A DNA stretch of 64,000 bases from a virus: IMG/VR virus record IMGVR_UViG_3300044534_000090; one strand, given 5' to 3'. Shown here in pieces: positions 5 through 56,058 of this stretch (position 1 is its first letter; every line of letters starts with the position of its first letter). Below the pieces are notes generated by a model that was not told where the DNA came from, searched no databases, and worked only from the letters and a program-made list of their open reading frames with translations. Position numbers and translations under genes: made by a program.

Positions 5-1219
5 GTGAAGACGGCCCGCAAGGCCTTCACCAGGCTGCGTTCCTTCTTCGAGAACGAGCGCGAATATCCGGATCTGGCCCGCATGTTGAAGACGGTCAGG
101 TCGACCAACGGGCAGGAGGCGATCATCCTCCACGCCGCCGACTGCGAGACGATGGCGCCCGGTTGTAGCTGCAAGGGCGGCGGATCGGTCGAGTTCGTGG
201 CCCGTTCGCGCGGTTCCGCGCGAGGCTTCACTGTTGACGATCTGGTCTGCGATGAGGTGCAGGAGTTGACCGACGAGCAGCTTGAGGCGCTTCTGCCGAC
301 GATCTCGGCGGCACCGTCCGGGAACCCGCAGCAGTTGTACACGGGCACCCCGCCCGGTCCGACGGCCTCCGGCGAGGTCATTATGCGGGTCCGCGAGCAG
401 GCGTTGGCCGGCAAGTCGAAGCGGATCGCGTGGACAGAGTTCTCGATCCCTGACGACGCTGACCCTGACGATGCGGTGGCGCACTGGCGGGACAACGCGG
501 TGCAGGTGAATCCGGCGCTCGGCATCAGACTGTCGATCCAAACAATTGAGGACGAGCTGGCCGGCATGTCCCCGGAAGGATTCTGCCGGGAAAGACTCGG
601 ACGTTGGGATCGCGCGGCCGGGGTGCAGCAGGCGATCCCGAAGGCCAAGTGGGCGGCCACGGCGGTCAGCAGGGCGCCGGATGGTGTGCGGAGTTTCGGT
701 GTGGCGTTTTCGGCCGACGGCTCCAAGCAGACGATCGCCGGTGCCGTGAAGGCGTCCGGGGTGATCCATGTGGAGGTGATCGCCGCCCAGTCCGGCAACA
801 CGGACGCCGGCATCAAGTCGCTGGCCGATTGGCTGGCGGAACGGTGGCACACCACGGCACAGATCGCAATCTCCGGCCGTGCCGGGGGTTCGGTGCTGTA
901 CAGGGCTCTTCGGGACCGTGGGGTTCCGGAGAAGGTCATCTGGACGGCGTCGACCGGCGAGTACTTGGAATCGTGCTCGCTGCTGATGGATGCGGTGCAG
1001 TCCGGGAATGTGACTCACCCGGCCGCCGACGACCCACAGCATGACGTACTTGAGCAGTCCGTGGCTGTGTGTGTGAAACGTCAGCGTGGCGGCGCGTGGG
1101 GCTGGGAGGCGGCCACCGCGAACGGCGACGAGACGCCCCTCGAAGCCATCTCCTTGGCGTACCGGGCGGCCAAGATGACCAGACGAAGACCCGGGACAAG
1201 ACAGAAAGCGTTGGTGTGA
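5..1219 (+). CDS. Terminase large subunit, phage X (5' part outside window)
   Basis: Walker B-like LVCDEVQE, coupling motif YTGTP, nuclease acidic residues; directly upstream of the portal. Confidence 0.9.
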   Translation: MKTARKAFTRLRSFFENEREYPDLARMLKTVRSTNGQEAIILHAADCETMAPGCSCKGGGSVEFVARSRGSARGFTVDDLVCDEVQELTDEQLEALLPTISAAPSGNPQQLYTGTPPGPTASGEVIMRVREQALAGKSKRIAWTEFSIPDDADPDDAVAHWRDNAVQVNPALGIRLSIQTIEDELAGMSPEGFCRERLGRWDRAAGVQQAIPKAKWAATAVSRAPDGVRSFGVAFSADGSKQTIAGAVKASGVIHVEVIAAQSGNTDAGIKSLADWLAERWHTTAQIAISGRAGGSVLYRALRDRGVPEKVIWTASTGEYLESCSLLMDAVQSGNVTHPAADDPQHDVLEQSVAVCVKRQRGGAWGWEAATANGDETPLEAISLAYRAAKMTRRRPGTRQKALV

Positions 1220-1220
1220 G

Positions 1221-2711
1221 ATGCGTGCTTATCCAGCTCCCGCGCCGCTGTTCACGGCGGCCCCCCAAGTGGTGGGGCTGGACGAGTACACCCAGAACCG
1301 GCTCGATGATCTTGTCACGGTGTGGTCCAAGCGGCGGTGGAGGAACCAGGTCAGGCAACAGTATCTTGACCTGAAGCGTCCTGTGGAGAGTCTGGGCATC
1401 TCGGTCCCTGAAGAGATCGCGGAGGGCCTGGAGATCGTCGTCGACTGGCCCGAGAAGGCCGTCTACAGTCTGGCGAACCTGTGCCAGTGGGACGGCGTCA
1501 TATCGGCTGACGGGAAGGACGACCCGTTCGACCTGGATGGGGTCCTCACCCAGAACAGGTTCGATGTTGAGATCCCGCAGACGATCGCCTCTGAGTTGAC
1601 TGATTCGTGTGCGTTCATCTCGACTCTGCACGGCCGCCCGGGGACTGACGACCCTGAGGTTGTCATCATGTCCCACTCGGCCGCGTGGGCCACGGGAATC
1701 TGGGATCGCAGGACCCGGAGCCTGTCATCGGCGCTGACCATTGATGAAGTGGACGATCTCGAACGGCCCACCCAGATGACGATCTACCTTCCCGACGAGT
1801 GGGTGGTCATCGAGGCGCCGAACGGTAACGCATCAGGGACGTGGGCGATCATCGACCATCGGCTACACGGCCTTAACCGTGTGCCCGTGGAACTGCTGCC
1901 ATTCCGGCCCACCTTGGACCGCCCGTTCGGCCGCTCCCGCATCAACCGGCGTGTCATGACGATCACCGACCGGGCTGTGCGTGCCGCACTCCGCATGGAT
2001 GTCTCCTCCGAGATCTACACCGCCCCAGGGCTGCTGCTGCGCGGGATCTCCGAAGAGGCGTGGCAGGACATTGCCAAGTCGTGGACGTGGAAACTTGGCA
2101 CGGTGAAGGCCGTCACCCGAGATGAGGACGGCACCTACCCTGAGGCCACCCAGCTCCCCCAGCAGACCATGCAGCCATTCATCGACCAGATGAGGGAACT
2201 GGCCGCCGAATTCTCCGGGGCCTCAAACGTTCCCCTGTCGGATCTCGGCATCGTGCAGGACAACCCTTCATCGGCGGAGGCCATGGCCACCGCCAAGGAG
2301 AACCTGGTCATCGAGGCCACGAACGCCAACAAGATCAACGGCTACGCTCTGGCCCGCGTCTACCAGAACATTGTGATGCTGCGAGACGGTGCTGGTGAGG
2401 TGTCTGACGAGCTGTCCGGTGTGTCAACCCGATGGCGGAACCCGTCGATGCCGTCCATCGTGTCGCAGTCCGACGCGATGGTGAAGCAGATCTCTGCCAT
2501 TCCGGATCTCGCGAAGACGGATGTCGCCCTGGAGCAGATGGGCTACACGTCGGAGGACATCGTGCGTATCAAGGCTCAGATCAAGACCGCGAAGGCCCGA
2601 GAGGCGCTCGACGCACTGGTGTCGGGCGTCAACCAGAACGCCCAGCAGCCTCCGCAACAGCCTCCCCAGGCCCAGCAGCAGGCCGCCCAGACGCCCGCCG
2701 AGGAGGAGTGA
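1221..2711 (+). CDS. Portal protein (SPP1 gp6-like)
   Basis: 496 aa after terL; PFGRSRI motif typical of actinophage portals; Q/P-rich C-tail. Confidence 0.88.
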   Translation: MRAYPAPAPLFTAAPQVVGLDEYTQNRLDDLVTVWSKRRWRNQVRQQYLDLKRPVESLGISVPEEIAEGLEIVVDWPEKAVYSLANLCQWDGVISADGKDDPFDLDGVLTQNRFDVEIPQTIASELTDSCAFISTLHGRPGTDDPEVVIMSHSAAWATGIWDRRTRSLSSALTIDEVDDLERPTQMTIYLPDEWVVIEAPNGNASGTWAIIDHRLHGLNRVPVELLPFRPTLDRPFGRSRINRRVMTITDRAVRAALRMDVSSEIYTAPGLLLRGISEEAWQDIAKSWTWKLGTVKAVTRDEDGTYPEATQLPQQTMQPFIDQMRELAAEFSGASNVPLSDLGIVQDNPSSAEAMATAKENLVIEATNANKINGYALARVYQNIVMLRDGAGEVSDELSGVSTRWRNPSMPSIVSQSDAMVKQISAIPDLAKTDVALEQMGYTSEDIVRIKAQIKTAKAREALDALVSGVNQNAQQPPQQPPQAQQQAAQTPAEEE

Positions 2712-2714
2712 CCC

Positions 2715-3473
2715 ATGGCCTCCGCAGAGCAGGAGCGGAAAGTCATGGCCACCCTCAACCTTCTTGTGGAGCATGCCCGCACGGATTGGCGGCGCATCTG
2801 GGACGGCCTGTCCGCCGTCGACCGGGCGGAGGTGGAGGGTGCCATCCGGGACGGCTGGGTGGCTGTTATCGAGAAGTACGGCGACATCGCCCAGACGCTC
2901 GCAGTCGACCTGTTCACCGACGAGGCGGAACGTCTCGGCATCCAGCCTGAGGTGAAACCCGCCGGCACGGTGCCGCCCGACAAGGCGACAGCACGTCTGG
3001 GATGGGCCATGGTGTCCGGGCAGGTTCTCGGGAACATGGACATCCTGTTGGACGAGTTCATCAAGCAGCCGTACAGGGACACGTTCCAGGACTCGGCTGT
3101 CGCCTCAGGTGCGGCGTGGGCCCGCGTCCCGAAGGGACCGGAGACGTGCAAGTTCTGTCTGCTCCTGGCCTCGCGCGGTGCCGTCTACGGATCGAAGTCC
3201 AAGGGCCTGTGGGCTGACGGGAAGATCGGACACCGCTATCACGGCTCCTGTGACTGCGCCGTGGTCCTTGTCCGTGGCCCCGAGGATTACCCGGCAGGCT
3301 ACGACCCGGACGCCATGTACGACGTCTACGACGTGGCCGCCCAGCAAGTGTTCGGCGACGGCCCCCGGTATTCAGGCCCCAAGACGGGGCCGAACAAGAA
3401 CTCCGGCTTGAAGGCCGTCCTCGCACAGATGCGATCGAACGCGATCGCCAACGGCGAGCACAACGTTCACTGA
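2715..3473 (+). CDS. MuF-like minor capsid / head maturation protein
   Basis: WARVP...TCKFC.LLASRG..Y and YHGSCDC motifs; between portal and scaffold. Confidence 0.75.
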   Translation: MASAEQERKVMATLNLLVEHARTDWRRIWDGLSAVDRAEVEGAIRDGWVAVIEKYGDIAQTLAVDLFTDEAERLGIQPEVKPAGTVPPDKATARLGWAMVSGQVLGNMDILLDEFIKQPYRDTFQDSAVASGAAWARVPKGPETCKFCLLLASRGAVYGSKSKGLWADGKIGHRYHGSCDCAVVLVRGPEDYPAGYDPDAMYDVYDVAAQQVFGDGPRYSGPKTGPNKNSGLKAVLAQMRSNAIANGEHNVH

Positions 3474-3589
3474 ATCTTCTGCCGCAAGGCAGTAGCAACC
3501 CGTTGCCGGAACGGCAACACACCCCCTGATGGTCGAATGCGCCCGCACAGGCGCTCGAACCAATCTGATAACGAAGGGAACACCTGAAA

Positions 3590-4165
3590 ATGCCGAAGGA
3601 CGAGATCCGCCTGGACGCCACCAGCGACGACGACAAGGGCCCCGACACAGTCGACGACCCGAACGACAACCCTCCCGCACAGGAGGACGACTCGGACGAC
3701 GAGAAGGACTGGAAGGCCCTGGCCCGCAAGTGGGAGTCCCGCGCCCGCAAGAACAAGGTTGCCGCCGACAAGAATCGGACGGCCGCCGAGAAGCTCGCGG
3801 AGATCGAGGAGTCCCAGAAGACCGAGTCTGAGAAGCAGGCCGAGAAGATCGCCGAACTGGAGAAGAAGGCGGCCCGGGCCGAGGCGCTCGAAACCCGGTA
3901 CAACGTGGCCACCAAGAAGGGAGTTCCTGCCGAACTCCTGGCCGGCCCCGGAGACGACGTCGAGGCGTTCGCCGACGCGCTGCTGAAGTGGCGAGGCACC
4001 GCCCCGGCCGAGAAGAAGGGCAGCCCTTCCCCTACCCAGGGGAAGCAGCCCGGGCGTACGGGGAACATGTCTCTGGATGAGCAGATCACGGCCGCCCATG
4101 AGGCTGGCGACAAGGATCTCGAAAAGCAGCTCAAGGTGATGAAGCTGGCCTATAAGGGCCAGTGA
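3590..4165 (+). CDS. Capsid scaffolding protein
   Basis: Acidic N-terminus, DWKALARKWESRA coiled coil; precedes MCP. Confidence 0.8.
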   Translation: MPKDEIRLDATSDDDKGPDTVDDPNDNPPAQEDDSDDEKDWKALARKWESRARKNKVAADKNRTAAEKLAEIEESQKTESEKQAEKIAELEKKAARAEALETRYNVATKKGVPAELLAGPGDDVEAFADALLKWRGTAPAEKKGSPSPTQGKQPGRTGNMSLDEQITAAHEAGDKDLEKQLKVMKLAYKGQ

Positions 4166-4194
4166 CCCAACTATCGAACGAAAGGGCATCGGAT

Positions 4195-5166
4195 ATGCCT
4201 GGCATTACTGGGCAGGGTACAACTTTCAACCTGCCGAACTACGTCGGGGAACTTTTCGAAGCATCCCCTGAGGACACCCCACTCCTGTCTGCCATCGGAG
4301 GTCTGACCGGCGGTCGACCTGCCACCACTCGATCTTTCGAGTGGCAGGGTTACGACCTGCGCGACCCTGAGGAGAACCGTCAGCGCCGTGAGGGCGCCAA
4401 CGCCCCCGACGGTGAGGAGCGGACCCGCTACAACGCCTCCAACGTGGTCGAGATCCACCAGGAGGCCGTCGAGCTGTCGTACACCAAGCAGGCGACAACC
4501 GGCGAGCGCAACACCAACGGCGCGAAGGTCGTCCAGATCGGCGGCGCCGCGATCCCGGCCAACGAGATGTCCTGGCAGATCGACCAGCAGATGAAGCAGA
4601 TCGCCCGAGACATCGAGAAGACGTTCATCGTCGGCACCTACGCCAACCCCGACGACAACAACACTCCTCGCAAGACTCGCGGACTGGCCGAAGCCATCAC
4701 AACCAACGTGGCCGAGTCGGACCACCCGTCCACCGCGCTGACCGATGACGAGGTGCTCGACCTGATGCAGACAGTGTGGGAGAACGGCGGCATTCAGACC
4801 GCCGAGACCCGCACTCTGCTGGTGAACGCGAAGCTGAAGCGGGCCCTCACCCGCATCTTCATCACCGACAAGAAGTACGAGGAGCAGTCGAGGAATGTCG
4901 GCGGTGTCTCCCTCCAGACGTTCGAGACTGACTTCGGCTCCTGCAACATCATGCTCGACCGGTGGATGCCGTCCGACACGCTCATTGTCGCGTCGCTCGA
5001 CGAGCTGGCACCGCGCTTCCTGGAGATCCCCGGAAAGGGGCACTTCTTCGTGGAGCCGCTCGCCAAGACTGGCGCCTCTGACAAGGTGCAGATCTACGGC
5101 GAGATCGGCTTGGAGTACGGAAACGAGAAGGCTCACGGGAAGCTGACCGTCGCGTCGGGTTCCTGA
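4195..5166 (+). CDS. Major capsid protein, phage X
   Basis: RBS GAAAGGG 4180-4186 then ATG 4195; position and size; YETDFG-like FETDFG and EIGLEYGNEKAHG end motifs. Confidence 0.85.
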   Translation: MPGITGQGTTFNLPNYVGELFEASPEDTPLLSAIGGLTGGRPATTRSFEWQGYDLRDPEENRQRREGANAPDGEERTRYNASNVVEIHQEAVELSYTKQATTGERNTNGAKVVQIGGAAIPANEMSWQIDQQMKQIARDIEKTFIVGTYANPDDNNTPRKTRGLAEAITTNVAESDHPSTALTDDEVLDLMQTVWENGGIQTAETRTLLVNAKLKRALTRIFITDKKYEEQSRNVGGVSLQTFETDFGSCNIMLDRWMPSDTLIVASLDELAPRFLEIPGKGHFFVEPLAKTGASDKVQIYGEIGLEYGNEKAHGKLTVASGS

Positions 5167-5176
5167 TCGGCTGATG

Positions 5177-5207
5177 GTGGGGCCCACGCCGGCGGCGTGG
5201 GCCCCAC
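5177..5207 (+). terminator. Perfect 14-bp hairpin after MCP (attenuator-like, no U tract)
   Basis: GTGGGGCCCACGCC-GGC-GGCGTGGGCCCCAC. Confidence 0.55.
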
Positions 5208-5222
5208 ACGAAGGGGCATGGG

Positions 5223-6650
5223 ATGAAAGTACAGATAGACGGCACGACCTATGTTCCGTCGGGAGAATCGGTTCCATCCATCGGCGTTGGCCTCTGCACA
5301 CGTAACCGTCGCGACATGGCCATGGAGACCGTGAAGGCATGGCGTGACCATCTGCCGGCGGGGGCGCGCCTGGTGATCGTCGATGACGCGTCAGACGTGC
5401 CGTTCCCAAACGCTGATTTCCGATTTGACGAGAACGCCGGGGTGGCCAGGGCGAAGAACAAGTGCCTGGAACTGCTGGCAGTCTGCCAGCACATCTTCCT
5501 CGTCGATGACGACATCCGGCCATTGACGGACGACTGGTGGAAGCCCTATGTGGCTTCGCGGGAGCCGCATCTCATGTGGATCTTCGACAAGCCCGCCGGC
5601 GTTACGAAACGGAAGGTCGAGATCCTCTTCGAGGATGATGAGATCGTCGCCTACCATGCCACACGGGGATGCCTCGTGTACGTCGAGCAACGTGTGCTCG
5701 ACCGTGTGGGCGGCATGGACCCGCGATTCGGCAAGTGGGGATGGGAGCACCAGTCCTGGAGCGACAGGATTCACGCGGCCGGCCTGACCACCGCCCGATA
5801 CATGGACGTGAAGAACTCTGAGGACCTGTTCGAATCGCTCGATCAGGAGGGCAAGGTCAAGTCCACGGCATCCGAGGAGGCCCGCAAGTTCTCCGAAGGC
5901 CCCGGGCTGGAACTGCGGATGCGGTCGCGCGATTCGGACGCCTACATCGAGTACCGAGACCTGTCCGACGTCGTGCTCACCTGCCTGATGACTGACCGGG
6001 ACGACCCGCAACGGTCGGGTCGGATGAAACACGATCCGTCTATGGCGGAGGACCTGCGCAAGTCCCTCAAGGGCGACCCGCGTCTGGTTGTGTTCCACAC
6101 GGGTGAGCTGAGCGTGAAGGGCGCCGAGATGGTGCCCGTCCGCCAGCAGTTCAACGTCTACTTCCAGCGGTGGCTTGAGTATTACCGCTACCTCAGACAG
6201 CATCCGGACATCGGATACGTGTGGTGTGTGGATGCCACCGACGTGCAGATGATCCGCGATCCCTTCCCGGAGATGGAGCGGGGCCAGTTGTACATGGGTT
6301 GGGAGCCGAAGACGCTACGCGATGAATGGATGCTGGCCCGCCACCCTGACAAGAAGCTTCAAGACTTCATGACGGCGAATCCGAACCTTCCATTGCTGAA
6401 CATGGGTGTGGTCGGCGGGGACCGTAACACTGTCATGGAGTTCGCCCAGAAGGTCACGGGCTTCTACTTCGATGACGAAATCGACTTCATCTACGGCTGG
6501 GAAACGAAACGCTGCGGGATTGGCGACATGGCCGTCGGCAACCTTGTGGCACGCCGCGACTTCGCCGACCGGATCTCCTCCGGACCGCACATCACGAACG
6601 TGTTCAAGTCGGAGAAGATCTCCCCCACAGCCTGGTGGAAGCACAGGTGA
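5223..6650 (+). CDS. Two-domain glycosyltransferase (N-terminal GT2 plus second GT-A-like domain)
   Basis: LVIVDDAS, NAGVARAKN, FLVDDD, GGMDPRFGKWGWEH; second DxD-like motif WCVDATDV and LLNMGVVGG. Confidence 0.85.
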   Translation: MKVQIDGTTYVPSGESVPSIGVGLCTRNRRDMAMETVKAWRDHLPAGARLVIVDDASDVPFPNADFRFDENAGVARAKNKCLELLAVCQHIFLVDDDIRPLTDDWWKPYVASREPHLMWIFDKPAGVTKRKVEILFEDDEIVAYHATRGCLVYVEQRVLDRVGGMDPRFGKWGWEHQSWSDRIHAAGLTTARYMDVKNSEDLFESLDQEGKVKSTASEEARKFSEGPGLELRMRSRDSDAYIEYRDLSDVVLTCLMTDRDDPQRSGRMKHDPSMAEDLRKSLKGDPRLVVFHTGELSVKGAEMVPVRQQFNVYFQRWLEYYRYLRQHPDIGYVWCVDATDVQMIRDPFPEMERGQLYMGWEPKTLRDEWMLARHPDKKLQDFMTANPNLPLLNMGVVGGDRNTVMEFAQKVTGFYFDDEIDFIYGWETKRCGIGDMAVGNLVARRDFADRISSGPHITNVFKSEKISPTAWWKHR

Positions 6651-6738
6651 GCCATGGGTGACGCGCGAGTAGACATGACGGTGTGTGGTGGGGCGGCCCG
6701 TGGCCCACATGCCCGGGACCTTATTGGAGTGACGATCA

Positions 6739-7359
6739 GTGAAACCCATCAGCATTGCACACGGCATCGTGGCCACCCCGGAGCGGTTCCCCCTGGCCGC
6801 CGACCTCGCCTCCCAGCTCGACGCCGACGTGATATCCGTCGATGACGACCACATGGGTGAGCGAGCCAACCATCAGAACTGCCTTGAACAGTTGATGGAC
6901 GTCGAGGCCGACTGGCTGGTGATGATCGAGGATGACGCGATCCTGTGCCAGGGCTTCGTGTCCCGCGAGTTCCAGGCCGTCCGCGAGATCGGACGTGACC
7001 ATGTCGGCTCGTGGTATCTGGGCACCGGGCGGTGGGCCGGGAAGTCCTGGTCGGTTCACGGCCCCCGCGTCGACCAGATGGTGGCAAACGCTGAGCGGAC
7101 TGGCGCAGACCTGATCTGGGCCGACGGACTGTGGCACGCCGTCGCGGTCGCCATTCCGTCCACGATCGCCCCGGAGCTGCTCCACCACATGAAGCACTCC
7201 GAGGAACACACGGACTGGGCCATCTCCGATTGGTGCAAGGCCACCGGTACGAAGGTGGCCTACACGATCCCGTCGTTGGTGGATCACCGCGACGACCGTA
7301 AACACATGTGCGACGGCGAGCCTGTCGACCGGCACGCGATCTGCTTCGAGGGGGTCTGA
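6739..7359 (+). CDS. Glycosyltransferase (GT-A, GT25-like)
   Basis: WLVMIEDDAIL and YTIPSLVDHRD motifs. Confidence 0.75.
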   Translation: MKPISIAHGIVATPERFPLAADLASQLDADVISVDDDHMGERANHQNCLEQLMDVEADWLVMIEDDAILCQGFVSREFQAVREIGRDHVGSWYLGTGRWAGKSWSVHGPRVDQMVANAERTGADLIWADGLWHAVAVAIPSTIAPELLHHMKHSEEHTDWAISDWCKATGTKVAYTIPSLVDHRDDRKHMCDGEPVDRHAICFEGV

Positions 7360-7718
7360 TGGCAACCGATCCGTACGCAACCATCGACCAGCTGGAGTCC
7401 GGCTGGAGGGAACTCTCCGAGGCTGAGCGCAAGACGGCTGAAACCCTGCTGGCCCGCGCCTCCAGGATGATCTCCGCCACCTGCCCGCACGCCGCCGACG
7501 CCGATCCCGGCCTGCTGTCAGACATCGCCTGCGCCGTGGTCAAGCGGGCTATGGCGGCCGGCGGGGAGAACATCACGAACCGGTCGATGACTGGCGGCCC
7601 GTACTCGGAGCAGTGGACCTACGCCAACCCTCAAGGGGACCTCTACTTGACCAAGGCCGAGAAGAAGATGCTCGGCTGCGGCACCATGCACGCGTTCGAG
7701 ACAGGGCTGGGACTATGA
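7359..7718 (+). CDS. Head-to-tail adaptor (gp19/gp15-like)
   Basis: PYATIDQL..W..LS..E..A..LL..AS; GGPYSEQWTYANP.GDLYLTKAE. Confidence 0.8.
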   Translation: MATDPYATIDQLESGWRELSEAERKTAETLLARASRMISATCPHAADADPGLLSDIACAVVKRAMAAGGENITNRSMTGGPYSEQWTYANPQGDLYLTKAEKKMLGCGTMHAFETGLGL

Positions 7719-8041
7719 ACCAACTCGACCAGGCGTTCGCTGCCGCCCGCACCGGCCGGTGGGTGCTGTACATCGCCAGGGACACAGTCGAACTGCGCGA
7801 CATGGAGAAGAAGGTGGAGGGCTGCGAAGGCCTCTGCCGGCTCCACAGGCGCGGTGGCACGGTCGCCATCTTCAAGGACGGCGCCGGCTTCGTCAGAGTG
7901 CTCACCGTCCGGCAGGTCAAGATGGGCGCCGTCCGGGGCCAGACCTACGACGGCATCTACGGAGCGATCGCCGACGAGATCCGCAACGAGGTGGCCCCCT
8001 GCCTGCTAGGTGCTCGCCGGCCGGTCATGGGCGGCGCCTGA
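7715..8041 (+). CDS. Hypothetical protein inserted in the head-tail joining cluster
   Basis: ATGA-coupled 108-aa ORF; no recognised motif. Confidence 0.6.
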   Translation: MNQLDQAFAAARTGRWVLYIARDTVELRDMEKKVEGCEGLCRLHRRGGTVAIFKDGAGFVRVLTVRQVKMGAVRGQTYDGIYGAIADEIRNEVAPCLLGARRPVMGGA

Positions 8042-8379
8042 TGGACGGCATGACGGTAACCGTCCGGGCGCGTGAACAGACCGGATGGGACGACCTCCAC
8101 GACCCCGTCTGGGGTGACTGGGCCGACGAACAGGACGTCGACGACGTGCTGTACGCGCCCGGCGCCACCGGAGACCTGGCCGGGAACATCCGTCTCGACG
8201 GCGTCGAGGTGCAGGCCACCCTGCACTTCCCGAAGACGTTCACCGGCTCCCTGGCCGGCAAGCGGATCGTGGTCGACGGCCACGAATACGCGGTCATTGG
8301 CGACCCCCGTCCGTACATGGATGCCAACACCCCGACCCGTTGGAATCGGCCCGTCGAACTCAAGGAGGTGGACGGATGA
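8041..8379 (+). CDS. Head-to-tail stopper / head closure protein
   Basis: DVLYAPG, LHFPKTF, YAVIGDP..Y...NTPTRWN motifs. Confidence 0.75.
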   Translation: MDGMTVTVRAREQTGWDDLHDPVWGDWADEQDVDDVLYAPGATGDLAGNIRLDGVEVQATLHFPKTFTGSLAGKRIVVDGHEYAVIGDPRPYMDANTPTRWNRPVELKEVDG

Positions 8380-20495: not shown

Positions 20496-21341
20496 ATGAG
20501 CAGAGCAGCGTGGTATCCGCGCGCCAACAGGACAGCTCAGAATTTCCAGCCAGCCCTGAACCGCCCGGCGATGCGCACCGTCAACGTGCTGGTGCTGCAC
20601 ACGACTGAGGGCACCTCGTGGCCGGGCTATGCGGGCGGCCGGCAGGCCCCGACCTTCACCATCAACTGCACGAGCGGGGCGCCTCAGGTGCGCCAGCATT
20701 TCCCGCTGCCGTGTGCCGCCATGGCGCTGGTGCAGCCGTCCGGGAGTCTGTCCACCAACCGGCTCAATGTGGCTCAGGTGGAGCTCGTCGGAACGGGCGG
20801 GTGGGCCAGCCCCGCCAACAGAAGCCGCCCCTACACCGTCTCTGGGCCTCACACTGACTGGACGAGGCCCGACGACATGATGCTCCGGGCGGTTGCTGAT
20901 CTCATTGCCTGGCTGCACAAGGAGTGGGAGGTGCCCCTGAAGGCGCCGATCCCGTTCGACAACTGGGCGGGCAACAACACCCACCGCATGACCGCCTCCC
21001 AGTGGGCCGGTTTCACCGGGATATGCGGCCACTCCCACGTGTGGGGCAACTACCACACCGACCCCGGATCATTCCCCATCGCCGCCTGCCTGAAGCTGGC
21101 CGCAGGCGGAACCGTATCAACCAATCCTCAGGAGGATGACATGCCCAGCGTTTCCGACATCTGGAACGGCAAGCTCCCTTTCAAGGCCACCCCGAAGGAC
21201 GACCGATTCACGGCCGGACGGCTGCTCGACGAGGCCGCCAGTCAGGCGACTTTCGCGGTCCGGGAGGCTCGCGCCGCCAAGGAGAAGGCCGAGCAGATCG
21301 ACGCCAAGCTCGACCGCCTCATCAAGAAGATGGGGGCCTGA
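20496..21341 (+). CDS. Endolysin, N-acetylmuramoyl-L-alanine amidase (Amidase_2)
   Basis: VLHTTEG, QVELVG, GICGHSHV..N.HTDPG. Confidence 0.9.
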   Translation: MSRAAWYPRANRTAQNFQPALNRPAMRTVNVLVLHTTEGTSWPGYAGGRQAPTFTINCTSGAPQVRQHFPLPCAAMALVQPSGSLSTNRLNVAQVELVGTGGWASPANRSRPYTVSGPHTDWTRPDDMMLRAVADLIAWLHKEWEVPLKAPIPFDNWAGNNTHRMTASQWAGFTGICGHSHVWGNYHTDPGSFPIAACLKLAAGGTVSTNPQEDDMPSVSDIWNGKLPFKATPKDDRFTAGRLLDEAASQATFAVREARAAKEKAEQIDAKLDRLIKKMGA

Positions 21342-21841: not shown

Positions 21842-21870
21842 CTCAGAACCCCCGCATACGCGGGGAAGAT
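21842..21870 (-). CRISPR. Solitary type I-E CRISPR repeat (candidate RNA anti-CRISPR unit)
   Basis: Minus strand ATCTT-CCCCGC-GTAT-GCGGGG-GTTCTGAG: 29 nt, 6-bp stem, tetraloop, 8-nt 3' handle as in I-E repeats. Confidence 0.75.
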
Positions 21871-21889: not shown

Positions 21890-21920
21890 GCGCCCCCGCA
21901 CCATCACGGTGCGGGGGCGC
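21890..21920. terminator. GC hairpin with ATCAC loop
   Basis: GCGCCCCCGCACC-ATCAC-GGTGCGGGGGCGC; core CACCATCACGGTG identical to the 55164-55198 hairpin. Confidence 0.6.
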
Positions 21921-27231: not shown

Positions 27232-27404
27232 CCTTCCCGATCGGGTGCGATCCCCGGGACTTTCCCCGCTCACCCGATGAGGACCTGTACTGCCCCAACT
27301 GCCGGGGCGCCGGCTGCACCGAATGCGGCTGGTCGGGAGTCCTCACACCAGAACAACGACGAATCCGTAAACAGAACGAAAGGGCATGGCGCCATGAACG
27401 CTGA
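27228..27404 (+). CDS. Small Zn-finger protein
   Basis: CPNCRGAGCTECGWSG. Confidence 0.55.
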   Translation: MTFPIGCDPRDFPRSPDEDLYCPNCRGAGCTECGWSGVLTPEQRRIRKQNERAWRHER

Positions 27405-27705
27405 ACAGATCAGCAAGAAATCCGGCTACTTCCAGACCGTCTTCGAGTGGGCCCAGAACCACGCTGACCTCTTCACCGACTGCTACGACGTGTACCCCGG
27501 TGTATCCGTCGGCCACGGTCACCTGGAGGTGGTCGGCCAGGGGAACATGTCGGCGATCACCCTCCCGGACGGTATGGCGTGGGAGTTCGACCATGAGGAC
27601 AAGCGTCCGGACGGTTCCACTGATGCCCGCTACTTCTCCGCCTCGAAGAAGGACGGGATCGTCACCGTCACCTTCGTGGGAGTCGTCAAGGGCGGCGACA
27701 AGTGA
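27394..27705 (+). CDS. Hypothetical protein
   Basis: Coupled ORF in the early operon. Confidence 0.55.
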   Translation: MNAEQISKKSGYFQTVFEWAQNHADLFTDCYDVYPGVSVGHGHLEVVGQGNMSAITLPDGMAWEFDHEDKRPDGSTDARYFSASKKDGIVTVTFVGVVKGGDK

Positions 27706-54773: not shown

Positions 54774-55149
54774 CCACCGTCGACCCGCCCGGTCTGCGAT
54801 AGGTGCTGGCACCAGCTCCCTGGCACTGGGCGCCACGGCCACGACCGCGGCGAAGGGAGACCACACCCACAGCTACAACGACCTGACCGACAAGCCCAGC
54901 ATCCCCTCGGCGCCGGCCGAGGAGCGCCTGGTGCCGACCGGAGGAACCCAGAATCAGATCCTCAAGGTCGGCTCGGACGGGAAGCCGGCGTGGGGGGCGG
55001 ATGCGAATACGCAGCCGCCCACCCTGTCGGCGGCCGACGTGCAGGCCGGGACGGCGACCATCCCCTCCTCGATCACCGCGAAGATTCTGGCGGATGAGAT
55101 CGACCGGCGCGTGGCGGCCGCGATCGCAGCTCTCCCCTCCGGAGGCTGA
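54770..55149 (+). pseudogene. Frameshifted structural-accessory gene (1-nt deficit near codon 6)
   Basis: RBS GGAGGAG and coupled ATG 54770 read MTTVDPPGLR-stop; the -1 frame continues ARSAIGAGTSSLALGATATTAAKGDHTH. Confidence 0.55.
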
Positions 55150-55163
55150 TCCTCGGGTACGAA

Positions 55164-55198
55164 GAAGCCCCCTCCACCATCACGGTGGAGGGGGCTTC
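55164..55198. terminator. Bidirectional intrinsic terminator
   Basis: GAAGCCCCCTCCACC-ATCAC-GGTGGAGGGGGCTTC. Confidence 0.85.
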
Positions 55199-55219
55199 GT
55201 GCGTCCGGGCCAGTGTCAG

Positions 55220-55347
55220 CGGGCCACCCCCGGGAAGCCGGGGAGGACAGCACATCACACAAAGTAAAACGGCTCACCCCCGCGCGGGCGGGGACTACAG
55301 TCGACCGATTCACAACCTCGGGTGACCCCCGCGTGAGCGGGGACATG
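55220..55347 (-). CRISPR. Type I-E CRISPR mini-array: 3 degenerate 29-nt repeats, spacers of 20 and 21 nt, no cas operon
   Basis: Minus repeats CATGT-CCCCGC-TCAC-GCGGGG-GTCACCCG (55347-55319), GTAGT-CCCCGC-CCGC-GCGGGG-GTGAGCCG (55298-55270), GTCCT-CCCCGG-CTTC-CCGGGG-GTGGCCCG (55248-55220). Confidence 0.85.
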
Positions 55348-55359
55348 TCCCTGACGGTA

Positions 55360-56058
55360 TCACTTGCGGCGGATCTTGGAGACCATCATCTCCGAGATCC
55401 CGAGCGCCCGGGCGAGCCGCCTCCCGGTCCAGTCAGGCCTCTCGGCCACCAGTGCAGCCCTCTCGGCGACCAGCGCGTCGAGCTGGCGCTGCGCGTCGGT
55501 GATCCTGGCGGCCACGTCACGCAGGGGCGCCTCGGCCGCCCGCGCCTCCTCGGTCTGCCGCTGCTGCTCCGCCTCCCACTCGGCCTCCTCTGCGCTGGCC
55601 TCCTCGACGGCGCGGCGCAGATCCGACAGTGAGGCTACGCGACGCCACCGCCGCTCCTGGTCCCCGTGATGAGACCGGACGGAGACGGGCCCGCCCTGCC
55701 ACTCCCACTCGCCGACCACGTACATGGGCGGCCGGTAGTCGGAGATGATCACCCGGCCGTCATCCCACACGCGGCCGGCGCTCAGCCATCCGCCGGCGAT
55801 CCACTCGCACCACACCTCGGTAGGCACCTCGTCACGGTCGGCTGGGTCCAGCTCCTCGATGGTGACGCCGAGGTCCAGCACGTCGCGGTCGCCGGATCCT
55901 CCCGGCAGGGCCTCGACGGCCTCTGCGACGCCCGGCTCCGAGGTGTCGCACCACTCGCGCGCTATGGCCATCAGCTCGGCGTCATCGTGCGGAGTAGCCC
56001 ACTCGCCCGAGTAGGTGTCGCGCATCAGTACCACGTGGCGCTCGTCGTAGGTGTACAT
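55360..56058 (-). CDS. Acidic N-terminal domain fused to C-terminal Aca-like HTH
   Basis: 23 D/E vs 5 R and 0 K in the first 86 aa; C-terminal WTGRRLARALGISEMMVSKIRRK. Confidence 0.75.
   Translation of the reverse strand: MYTYDERHVVLMRDTYSGEWATPHDDAELMAIAREWCDTSEPGVAEAVEALPGGSGDRDVLDLGVTIEELDPADRDEVPTEVWCEWIAGGWLSAGRVWDDGRVIISDYRPPMYVVGEWEWQGGPVSVRSHHGDQERRWRRVASLSDLRRAVEEASAEEAEWEAEQQRQTEEARAAEAPLRDVAARITDAQRQLDALVAERAALVAERPDWTGRRLARALGISEMMVSKIRRK

What the first reader, a model, noticed from the sequence alone, without database searches (positions are those of the whole stretch)
55164..55365. Phage-borne type I-E CRISPR mini-array with ultra-short spacers, co-transcribed behind an Aca-like gene
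Seen: three 29-nt units with the I-E architecture (5 nt, CCCCGS stem, tetraloop, SCGGGG, 8-nt handle ending CCG). One stem carries a compensatory change (GC/GC to GG/CC) while loops and flanks vary, which points to selection on RNA structure. The period is 49-50 nt rather than ~61, with 20- and 21-nt spacers. The array starts 13 nt after the stop of the HTH gene and ends 21 nt before a terminator, so a third handle+spacer+terminator unit is possible. No cas operon is in the window. Established: Cas6e cuts at the stem base leaving an 8-nt handle; solitary-repeat RNA anti-CRISPRs (Racrs) and crRNA-like regulators (CreA/CreR) exploit this. Inference: the phage makes several truncated crRNA mimics that load host Cascade, either to titrate it or to re-target it. 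A multi-unit, short-spacer I-E decoy array in an actinophage would be unusual.
Basis: partly seen in the sequence, partly recalled or inferred. Interest (0 to 1): 0.95.

Follow-up and report, generated by a model that had tools for sequence, protein, structure and literature searches.

The report
Phage copy of host CRISPR-regulator RNA
A temperate phage of sludge Propionibacteriaceae carries a three-unit mini-array of CRISPR-like repeats whose first short "spacer" copies the host's own cas-gene-silencing RNA, so it most likely turns the host's CRISPR machinery against its own promoter; this trick was recently described in other phages, so this is a new example and not a new kind of system.

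Summary
Three 29-nt type I-E-like repeat units lie on the minus strand at 55347-55220, with a 49/50-nt period and 20/21/21-nt spacers. They sit between the stop of a 232-aa gene and a 15-bp hairpin. This is far more than chance would give, and relatives carry 1-3 units.

The units match real CRISPR repeats of Propionibacteriaceae. One such host array carries spacers against phage X of this window and against relatives of phage Y.

The decisive result concerns unit 1. Its handle plus the first 14 nt of S1 (GTCACCCG-AGGTTGTGAATCGG) is identical to a mini-array in the cas3-cse1 intergenic region of a complete I-E operon (genome G505). A syntenic metagenomic locus has the same element. That host element also has a 20-nt spacer, and it pairs with the cse1 promoter/5'UTR, with mismatches at positions 6 and 12 only. 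It is a CreR-type autorepressor.

The phage array is therefore a viral CreR mimic, a "Cracr array" in the sense of Liu et al. (bioRxiv 10.1101/2024.10.29.618823). That preprint already reports multi-spacer, short-spacer I-E arrays in phages.

I found no cognate for S2 or S3. The "Aca-like" label for the upstream gene is not supported. No RNA data exist.

Verdict: a real feature and a new member of a known kind, of moderate interest.

The parts
55360..56058 (-). 232-aa gene (P0001) directly upstream of the array. Function unknown; it has a long coiled-coil helix and a short C-terminal HTH-like pair of helices.
   Evidence: ORF. No Pfam hit. Weak PHROG HTH match, E = 0.005, residues 173-232. AF2 model pLDDT 86 with no significant fold match. 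Thirteen homologues at 51-86% identity; 9 of the 10 distinct loci examined carry repeat units downstream.
55348..55359 (-). 12-nt gap between the stop codon and the first unit (TACCGTCAGGGA). It is conserved in relatives, which implies co-transcription with the gene.
   Evidence: Sequence. Relatives keep GTGATACCGTCAGGG. No promoter consensus was found between gene and array.
55319..55347 (-). Unit 1 (pseudo-repeat 1): CATGT CCCCGC tcac GCGGGG plus the 8-nt handle GTCACCCG.
   Evidence: The handle is identical to that of the host CreR pseudo-repeat 1 in G505 and L276.
55299..55318 (-). Pseudo-spacer S1 (20 nt), AGGTTGTGAATCGG TCGACT. The first 14 nt are identical to the host CreR pseudo-spacer. 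The predicted target is the cse1 promoter/5'UTR of G505/L276-type I-E loci.
   Evidence: Exact 22-nt match (handle + 14 nt) in G505 between cas3 and cse1. The 14 nt are conserved in phage relatives while nt 15-20 vary. The only 10-position seed match in 0.82 Mb of cas loci lies in the same intergenic region.
55270..55298 (-). Unit 2: GTAGT CCCCGC ccgc GCGGGG GTGAGCCG. Its handle is that of genuine Propionibacteriaceae array repeats.
   Evidence: Host repeats are ATCCGCCCCGCGTATGCGGGGGTGAGCC (G413) and GTCCTCCCCGCCTATGCGGGGGTGAGCCC (G457). 31-nt unitigs covering 55269-55299 with 2 differences occur in sludge runs.
55249..55269 (-). Pseudo-spacer S2 (21 nt, AT-rich), TTTTACTTTGTGTGATGTGCT. Target unknown.
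   Evidence: Present only in the window-type variants L023-L026. No cognate in 401 family genomes or about 70 cas loci. IMG/VR hits are at chance level.
55220..55248 (-). Unit 3: GTCCT CCCCGG cttc CCGGGG GTGGCCCG. The stem carries a compensatory C:G to G:C swap.
   Evidence: The first 5 nt, GTCCT, equal the start of the G457 array repeat.
55199..55219 (-). S3 (21 nt), CTGACACTGGCCCGGACGCAC. This trailing segment lies between the last handle and the terminal hairpin and is conserved in 5 of the 7 distinct relative arrangements; L027 keeps only a shifted core and L030 lacks it. It is either a third guide or a 3' trailer.
   Evidence: Conserved in L001, L021/L022, L026 and L031. No cognate or target found.
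55164..55198 (.). Perfect 15-bp inverted repeat with a 5-nt loop between convergent genes. It is the likely bidirectional, U-poor terminator that ends the array transcript.
   Evidence: Inverted repeat I2. It forms in the MFE fold. The U-tract consensus scan does not call it.

Best explanation
The locus is a phage-encoded array of crRNA-like regulatory RNAs. It is a viral mimic of the host's CreR (Cas-regulating RNA), the kind of element named a 'Cracr array' by Liu et al.

Proposed mechanism:
1. The array is transcribed with, or just behind, the 232-aa gene. It runs leftward, in the same direction as the integrase, so expression in the lysogen is plausible. (Inferred.)
2. Host Cas6e cuts at the 3' base of each CCCCGS/SCGGGG hairpin. 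This gives roughly 49-50-nt RNAs made of an 8-nt 5' handle, a 20-21-nt pseudo-spacer and a 3' hairpin. (Inferred from the established I-E processing rule.)
3. The RNAs assemble with Cas5e, Cas7 and the other subunits into a shortened Cascade. (Inferred.)
4. The first RNA (handle GUCACCCG plus AGGUUGUGAAUCGG...) has the same handle and the same 14 PAM-proximal nucleotides as the CreR mini-array between cas3 and cse1 of Propionibacteriaceae I-E operons. (Shown by sequence.)
5. That host CreR pairs with the cse1 promoter/5'UTR at positions 1-5 and 7-11, and also 13-14 in a second locus. It mismatches at the flipped-out positions 6 and 12. This is enough for binding but not for Cas3 cleavage. (Pairing shown in silico; binding without cleavage inferred.)
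6. The phage RNA would therefore steer Cascade onto the host's own cas promoter, tightening autorepression. It would also compete with immune crRNAs for Cas proteins. Both effects lower interference against the phage or prophage. (Inferred by analogy with the tested Salmonella CracrIE array.)

S2 and S3 are probably further guides against other I-E variants or other promoters, but their targets are unknown.
For: 1. Anatomy and non-randomness.
2. The units resemble genuine repeats. CCCCGC-N4-GCGGGG-GTSRSCCG repeats at 61-nt period form real arrays across Actinomycetota. In Propionibacteriaceae the repeats are those of G413 and G457.
3. Host link. The host of the prophage relative L021 is Propionibacteriaceae (MoeA 97% and 89% identical to G448 and G413). 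G413 array spacers match phage X at 27397-27429 (32/33) and 20585-20613 (28/29). They also match the P0001-family gene of phage Y relatives.
4. Decisive match. GTCACCCGAGGTTGTGAATCGG occurs exactly once among 401 family genomes. It lies in G505, antisense in the cas3-cse1 intergenic region of a complete I-E operon with cas3, cse1, cse2, cas7, cas5, cas6e and cas1 by Pfam. There it forms pseudo-repeat, 20-nt pseudo-spacer, pseudo-repeat.
5. Second locus. The syntenic metagenomic locus L276 (72% identity over 8.9 kb) has AGGTTcTGAATCGG, differing from S1 only at position 6.
6. Target. caatAGGTTtTGAATg lies 9 nt upstream of the cse1 RBS in G505, and aaaAGGTTaTGAATaGG lies at the same place in L276. 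The G505 site is the only 10-position seed match in 824,638 positions of cas loci.
7. Conservation pattern. The phage relatives that carry an S1 unit (L001, L026, L027, L031; one change in L030) keep its 14 PAM-proximal nt, while nt 15-20 vary.
8. Short spacers are native. Spacers of 20-21 nt with a 48-49-nt period occur in host CreR elements of this family (G505, G001, G771, G417, G476).
9. Hairpin covariation. In 26 units, 98.7% of cells are paired and 3 of 6 pairs show compensatory changes (0 of 500 shuffles).
10. Co-occurrence. Sludge runs that hold phage Y also hold short contigs of an L276-like cas3-CreR region with the same 14 nt.
11. Published precedent with experiments.
Against: - There is no transcription, processing or interference data. 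No RNA run holds the locus.
- The cognate CreR was found in G505 and L276. These are not the genomes most closely tied to the phages. G448, the same species as the L021 lysogen, has no Cse1 or Cas6e hit. G413, whose spacers hit these phages, has an I-G-like effector set plus a Cas6e-like protein, not a canonical I-E operon.
- S2 and S3 have no identified cognate or target.
- The PAM-like triplets at the predicted targets are AAT and AAA, not the canonical I-E AAG.
- Two relatives have a mismatch in a stem (L021, L027 U1), and one relative (L028) has no units at all.
- The handles differ among the three units, unlike a working CRISPR array.
Confidence: 0.75

Rival explanations
1. Pure decoy (Racr-like). 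The hairpins only soak up Cas6e and other Cas subunits into aberrant, non-functional complexes. The sequence between the hairpins has no guiding role.
For: - The handles differ among units, and S2 and S3 have no detectable target.
- Solitary repeat units acting in this way are documented (PMC10651486, seen).
- Phage X in the same window carries a single unit.
- Liu et al. also infer competition for Cas proteins.
Against: The 14 PAM-proximal nt of S1 are conserved across diverged phages and are identical to a host CreR that has a matching promoter site. The distal 6 nt drift. A pure decoy would not need that pattern.
Confidence: 0.1
2. A genuine mini-CRISPR array used by the phage or prophage against competing phages or plasmids (superinfection exclusion). 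S2, S3 and the 33-nt spacer of relative L031 would be interference guides.
For: - Relative L031 has one unit with a canonical 33-nt spacer.
- Viral mini-arrays with normal spacers are common among prophage contigs carrying this repeat type.
- Published precedent: PMC6858448.
Against: - Spacers of 20-21 nt are 12 nt short of the host norm.
- No protospacer was found in the window, in relatives or in IMG/VR above chance.
- S1 matches a host regulator, not a phage.
Confidence: 0.07
3. Decaying relic or passive structure. The locus is either a remnant of captured host CRISPR/CreR DNA with no present function, or a set of GC hairpins serving only as transcription stops or RNA stabilisers between convergent genes.
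For: - Unit number varies from 0 to 3 among relatives, and some stems are broken.
- The array sits between convergent genes next to a strong hairpin.
Against: - Handle plus 14 nt are identical to a host CreR across otherwise diverged DNA.
- Stems show compensatory changes.
- The locus is conserved downstream of P0001 homologues that are only 51-86% identical.
- The 6-bp hairpins are weak terminators, and a 15-bp hairpin already does that job.
Confidence: 0.06

Closest known systems
Viral Cracr arrays, in particular the prophage CracrIE array of Salmonella enterica Se29 (Liu et al., bioRxiv 10.1101/2024.10.29.618823, version of 2026-07-28)
   Same: - Located in a phage or prophage, outside any cas locus.
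- Several I-E repeat-like units separated by short pseudo-spacers (24 and 21 nt there; 20, 21 and 21 nt here).
- A pseudo-spacer that copies a host CreR and partly matches the casA/cse1 promoter.
- Additional spacers whose targets could not be assigned.
- A last unit that is atypical.
   Different: - Host phylum is Actinomycetota (Propionibacteriaceae of sludge) rather than Enterobacteria.
- The cognate host CreR itself already has a 20-nt spacer.
- The third unit ends in a terminator hairpin instead of a repeat.
- Nothing here is experimentally tested.
- I could not check whether this lineage is already in their Table S2, because the supplements are not held.
Host CreR / regulatory mini-arrays next to cas3 in type I-E loci (Shmakov et al. 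2023, bioRxiv 10.1101/2023.03.03.530964; CreR as cited in Liu et al.)
   Same: - Same pseudo-repeat, short spacer, pseudo-repeat build.
- Same handle and 14-nt guide as the G505 and L276 element.
- Partial complementarity to the cas promoter, with mismatches at every sixth position.
   Different: - It lies in a phage, not in a cas locus.
- It has three units instead of one.
- It serves the phage, not host autoregulation.
Racr, RNA anti-CRISPRs (Camara-Wilpert et al. 2023, Nature, PMC10651486)
   Same: Phage-borne mimic of CRISPR repeats that is expected to be bound by Cas6 and other Cas proteins.
   Different: Racrs are solitary repeat units with no guide function. Here the units are arrayed, and at least one carries a conserved guide that matches a host regulator. 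The single unit of phage X (21842-21870) is closer to a Racr.
Virus-borne mini-CRISPR arrays for interviral conflict (Medvedeva et al. 2019, PMC6858448)
   Same: A small array in a virus with no cas genes, relying on host Cas proteins.
   Different: Those arrays carry full-length spacers that match competing viruses. Here the spacers are 12 nt short, no viral protospacer was found, and S1 matches a host cas promoter regulator.

Membership tests
Cracr array (viral CreR/CreA mimic; Liu et al.) | Encoded on a virus or plasmid, outside a CRISPR-cas locus | tested here: met
   The window holds two phage genomes with no cas gene near the locus. The array lies between tail/virion genes and the integrase module. 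A relative is an integrated prophage next to host genes.
Cracr array (viral CreR/CreA mimic; Liu et al.) | Repeat-like units resembling the repeats or pseudo-repeats of the targeted CRISPR-Cas type | tested here: met
   The stem CCCCGC/GCGGGG and GT-initial 8-nt handles match I-E arrays and CreR pseudo-repeats of Propionibacteriaceae.
Cracr array (viral CreR/CreA mimic; Liu et al.) | Pseudo-spacer shares at least 9 PAM-proximal nt with a host CreR/CreA pseudo-spacer | tested here: met
   S1 shares 14 of 14 nt plus an identical 8-nt handle with G505 CreR, and 13 of 14 with L276 (the difference is at position 6). For S2 and S3 no cognate was found in the genomes and loci searched.
Cracr array (viral CreR/CreA mimic; Liu et al.) | Partial complementarity to a cas (or creT) promoter | tested here: met
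   AGGTTtTGAAT lies 9 nt upstream of the cse1 RBS in G505, and AGGTTaTGAATaGG lies at the same place in L276. The G505 site is the unique 10-position seed hit in 0.82 Mb of cas loci. This is in silico only.
Cracr array (viral CreR/CreA mimic; Liu et al.) | Cas-dependent maturation and inhibition of CRISPR interference | not testable with these tools
   No RNA-seq run holds the locus. This needs bench work.
Bona fide type I-E CRISPR array | Near-identical 28-29-nt repeats with 32-33-nt variable spacers (61-nt period) | tested here: not met
   The period is 49-50 nt and the spacers 20-21 nt. The units differ in loop, handle and 5' end, and S1 is conserved between phages. Host arrays have a 61-nt period.
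Bona fide type I-E CRISPR array | Adjacent cas operon and leader | tested here: not met
   No cas genes in the window near the locus. The array starts 12 nt after a protein-coding gene.
Racr (solitary repeat unit RNA anti-CRISPR) | A single repeat unit without a guide that matches a host regulator | tested here: not met
   There are three units, and S1 matches host CreR. Liu et al. separate such cases from Racrs by exactly this criterion.
Acr-Aca operon (the upstream gene as Aca) | The upstream gene is a recognisable Aca-family HTH repressor next to an acr gene | tested here: inconclusive
   P0001 has no Pfam family and only a weak PHROG HTH hit, E = 0.005. A confident AF2 model has no significant fold match. 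The 99-aa neighbour has no hit at all.

The most novel reading that the evidence does not exclude
The array may be a multiplexed guide set that reaches beyond cas autoregulation. S2 (AT-rich, found only in this phage variant) and S3 (conserved even in single-unit relatives, and ending in a terminator hairpin instead of a repeat) would direct shortened Cascade to promoters that are not cas promoters. Candidates are other defence systems or genes of rival phages. Alternatively, the units could be processed by the Cas6e-like protein of the I-G-like system of the G413 lineage, whose spacers hit these phages. That would be a cross-subtype hijack, which has not been described.
Probability: 0.15. Interest if true: 0.7.

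Novelty: new member of a known kind. Interest (0 to 1): 0.45.

Why it matters
The locus extends the recently described viral "CreR-mimic" strategy to phages of Actinomycetota living in wastewater sludge. Both sides of the interaction are visible in sequence: the host regulator, its promoter site with the tell-tale mismatches at every sixth position, and the phage copy.

It also shows that 20-nt guides, which correspond to a Cascade lacking two Cas7 subunits, are the native format of I-E autoregulators in this bacterial family. This bears on how Cascade separates binding from cutting.

The two unassigned guides and the variable module content among relatives give a tractable system for asking what else phages make host Cascade silence.

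Tried and rejected
- Rfam: no family matched the region.
- Public phage records: no DNA or protein relative of the locus. The terminase is only 31-35% identical to those of Arthrobacter and Gordonia phages.
- The window's own genome is not held. The NCBI prophage genome is not held either.
- The first genome-contig scan, with the P0001 alignment, found nothing.
- attP or integrase arm sites: rejected, because the units stay inside the prophage, more than 700 bp from the host junction in L021.
- Self-targets of S1, S2 and S3 in the window: none.
- Targets in the G413, G457 and G489 cas loci: only background scores.
- S2 cognate in 401 family genomes: 11 hits, none next to a repeat hairpin, and at control level.
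- cas3-cse1 intergenic regions of the 30 best Cse1 loci: no mini-arrays. Regions upstream of cas3 in 40 loci hold many CreR-like elements, but none matches S2 or S3.
- An S3-like 10-mer in L254 lies on the wrong strand of a degenerate repeat pair and was judged to be chance.
- IMG/VR hits to S2 are in 46-53% GC contigs at the number expected by chance. The 33-nt spacer of L031 has no hit.
- Fold searches for P0001 gave nothing significant.
- No promoter or U-tract terminator consensus in the region.
- RNA evidence: no RNA run holds the locus.
Full report
**1. What is there**

The finding lies in the 210-nt gap between two convergent genes. One is a plus-strand virion gene that ends at 55149. 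The other is a minus-strand 232-aa gene (P0001, 55360-56058).

Read on the minus strand, the gap holds three 29-nt units. Each has 5 nt, a 6-bp CCCCGS/SCGGGG stem with a 4-nt loop, and an 8-nt tail that begins with GT:
- U1 at 55347-55319
- U2 at 55298-55270
- U3 at 55248-55220

They are separated by S1 (20 nt) and S2 (21 nt). S3 (21 nt) and a perfect 15-bp hairpin (55198-55164) follow. The periods are 49 and 50 nt.

The stem motif occurs 4 times in 64 kb against 0.26 expected. Three copies are here and one is at the equivalent place of the other phage in the window. All hairpins form in the minimum-energy fold, z = -4.15. The gap after the stop codon is 12 nt, not 13.

**2. Context**

The window holds two different temperate phage genomes placed head to tail.

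Phage Y has the order virion genes, array, P0001, a 99-aa gene, integrase, then an ImmA-like protease. The array is therefore transcribed leftward with the lysogeny-side genes.

Neither phage resembles anything in the public phage collection.

**3. Relatives**

P0001 has 13 homologues at 51-86% identity. I read the DNA downstream of P0001 itself (three contigs, L023-L025) and of seven of these homologues:
- L023-L026 have the same three units as the window.
- L001 has two units: the U2 stem fused to the U3 handle, which looks like a repeat-mediated deletion.
- The integrated prophage L021/L022 has one unit, with a stem mismatch.
- L027 has a degenerate U1 plus U2.
- L030 has two units.
- L031 has an extra unit with a canonical 33-nt spacer, followed by the S1 unit and the S3 unit.
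- L028 has none.

Across the relatives that carry an S1 unit, its first 14 nt (AGGTTGTGAATCGG) and its handle (GTCACCCG) are kept, while nt 15-20 vary. S3 is kept in L001, L021/L022, L026 and L031; L027 has only a shifted core of it and L030 lacks it.

A conserved "spacer" is not what a CRISPR memory looks like. It is what a guide with a fixed target looks like.

**4. Are the units CRISPR-like, and who is the host?**

A scan of species genomes shows that CCCCGC-N4-GCGGGG-GTSRSCCG repeats at 61-nt spacing form genuine arrays in many Actinomycetota. These include Propionibacteriaceae.

The host genes flanking prophage L021 place its host in Propionibacteriaceae. MoeA is 97% identical to G448 and 89% to G413.

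G413 has a 66-repeat array with the repeat ATCCG CCCCGC GTAT GCGGGG GTGAGCC. G457 has GTCCT CCCCGC CTAT GCGGGG GTGAGCCC. These share the stem, the GTGAGCC handle (as in U2), the GTCCT start (as in U3) and the GTAT loop (as in the phage X unit and L031) with the phage units.

G413 spacers match phage X at 27397-27429 (32/33) and 20585-20613 (28/29). They also match the P0001-family gene of phage Y relatives. This bacterial lineage therefore meets these phages.

Both the phage and the host-type loci come from bioreactor sludge, digester and wastewater metagenomes.

**5. The decisive comparison**

I searched 401 Propionibacteriaceae genomes for handle plus S1. This gave one exact hit, in G505. 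It lies antisense in the 170-nt gap between cas3 and cse1 of a complete I-E operon with Cas3, Cse1, Cse2, Cas7, Cas5, Cas6e and Cas1 by Pfam.

The hit is part of a mini-array:
- a covarying hairpin, CTCCGT...GCGGAG
- the handle GTCACCCG
- a 20-nt pseudo-spacer, AGGTTGTGAATCGGGTCGCT
- a second unit, ATGGT CCCCGC gcga GCGGGG

A metagenomic contig (L276) is syntenic over 8.9 kb and carries the same element, with AGGTTcTGAATCGG.

In both loci the gap also holds a partial match, 9 nt upstream of the cse1 ribosome-binding site. It reads AGGTTtTGAATg in G505 and AGGTTaTGAATaGG in L276. Pairing holds at positions 1-5, 7-11 and 13-14 and fails exactly at positions 6 and 12. Cascade flips those bases out. 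In 824,638 positions of about 70 cas loci, the G505 site is the only 10-position seed match to S1 apart from the CreR itself.

This is the signature of a CreR-type autorepressor, as described for I-E loci next to cas3. The phage unit U1-S1-U2 is a copy of it.

**6. Short spacers are native here**

Regions upstream of cas3 in 40 further I-E loci of the family contain many such mini-arrays. Several have 20-21-nt pseudo-spacers and 48-49-nt periods (G001, G771, G417, G476). Others have 32-nt spacers (G457, G478, G512, G543).

The "ultra-short" spacing is therefore inherited from host regulators. Twenty nucleotides is the host norm of 32-33 minus 12, which corresponds to two Cas7 steps.

**7. Structure**

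I aligned 26 units from phages and host CreR elements. In the 6-bp helix, 98.7% of cells are paired. Three of the six pairs show changes on both sides, and no shuffle out of 500 reaches this.

**8. What is known**

Liu et al. (bioRxiv 10.1101/2024.10.29.618823) define viral "Cracr" RNAs as crRNA-like RNAs on phages or plasmids that share at least 9 PAM-proximal nt with a host CreR or CreA. Their main points are:
- 219 candidates, with targets that include Actinomycetota.
- 30 arrays, of which 16 are two-spacer and 4 are three-spacer I-E arrays.
- For a Salmonella prophage array with 24- and 21-nt pseudo-spacers, they showed Cas-dependent processing, lower casA transcription, loss of immune crRNAs and rescue of T7.
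- All of these effects depend on the first pseudo-spacer.
- Some arrays carry extra spacers with unknown targets.

Shmakov et al. had predicted such viral copies earlier. Racrs, which are solitary repeats, are the simpler relative.

The present locus meets every sequence-level criterion of a Cracr array for S1. I therefore class it as a new member of a known kind.

**9. Open points**

- S2 and S3 have no cognate or target in the window, in 401 family genomes, in about 70 cas loci or in IMG/VR.
- The genomes closest to the lysogen do not carry the cognate locus. G448 has no Cse1 or Cas6e hit. G413 combines I-E-like repeats and a Cas6e-like protein with I-G-type Cas3g, Csb1 and Csb2.
- However, the sludge runs that hold phage Y also hold short contigs of an L276-like cas3-CreR region, whose pseudo-spacer starts with the same 14 nt. 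Phage and target system therefore share samples.
- The PAM-like triplets are AAT and AAA, not AAG.
- The single-unit prophage L021, with its broken stem, sits in a species whose representative genome lacks I-E. This fits decay without a target, but it is only one case.
- There are no RNA data.

**10. The upstream gene**

P0001 gives a confident model (pLDDT 86) with an alpha/beta N-terminal part, a 60-residue helix and two short C-terminal helices. It has no Pfam family, only a weak PHROG HTH hit and no significant fold match. "Aca-like" is therefore not established.

**11. Verdict**

The idea that it hijacks Cascade is supported, and I can sharpen it to "mimic of the host cas autorepressor". 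The claim of an unusual new type of element is not supported. Interest is moderate.

Noticed in passing
window 21842-21870 (minus), with the hairpin at 21890-21920: Phage X carries one I-E-like unit (ATCTT CCCCGC gtat GCGGGG GTTCTGAG) at the equivalent locus, behind a 66-aa HTH-like gene and next to terminator hairpins. Its stem-loop is identical to the G413 array repeat. Its 5' end and GTT-initial tail resemble the terminal pseudo-repeat of host CreR elements such as G512. It may be a Racr, or the end of a hairpin-segment-repeat unit.
   Followed up: partly
window 27397-27429 and 20585-20613: These are protospacers in phage X. They are matched 32/33 and 28/29 by spacers of the 66-repeat array of genome G413 (Propionibacteriaceae), which gives a direct host link for phage X. 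A third G413 spacer matches the P0001-family gene of phage Y relatives (L027 2953-2981, L026 1041-1063).
   Followed up: yes
L178 (G413:C1:1252000-1271900), positions 866-8150: The cas locus next to the I-E-like 29-nt-repeat array of G413 is not canonical I-E. It encodes Cas3g, Csb2 (Cas5/6g), Csb1/Cas7g-like proteins and a Cas6e-like protein, with no Cse1. No cas1 or cas2 turned up among the five ORFs I scanned; I did not search for them specifically. A divergent repeat-like unit (CCTCGC gtat GCGGGG GTCTCTGT) sits upstream of the first gene. This is a hybrid I-G/I-E-like arrangement that seems worth a separate look.
   Followed up: partly
L250 (G543:C7) 1977-2124; also L238, L245 and L179 7140-7330: Host CreR-like mini-arrays lie upstream of cas3 in Cutibacterium-like I-E loci. 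Pseudo-repeat 1 is a covarying hairpin (CTCTGC ccat GCAGAG) with handle GTGAGCCA. The 32-nt pseudo-spacer pairs with the cas3 promoter (TTGTTgGGTTGgGTG against TTGTTtGGTTGtGTG in G457). G543 has a two-spacer version.
   Followed up: partly
It has no Pfam match at E <= 0.001 and hits only PHROG 4652 (unknown function, E = 1.5e-37). I found no support for a Cas7 assignment, but I did not fold it.
   Followed up: partly
L003/L006, L012-L019 and other IMG/VR loci: Many prophage contigs from isolate genomes carry mini-arrays with the same repeat core (CCCCGC-N4-GCGGGG-GTGAGCC). They have a normal spacer of about 33 nt and a truncated second repeat followed by a T-run. This shows that repeat-bearing loci of this type are widespread in prophages.
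   Followed up: no
window 55269-55299, in runs X25 and X27: 31-nt unitigs in sludge runs cover unit 2 with only 2 differences, at individual depths of 2-10 in X25 and 16-37 in X27. This is the typical trace of a high-copy CRISPR repeat nearly identical to U2 in those communities. I could not read the array itself.
   Followed up: no
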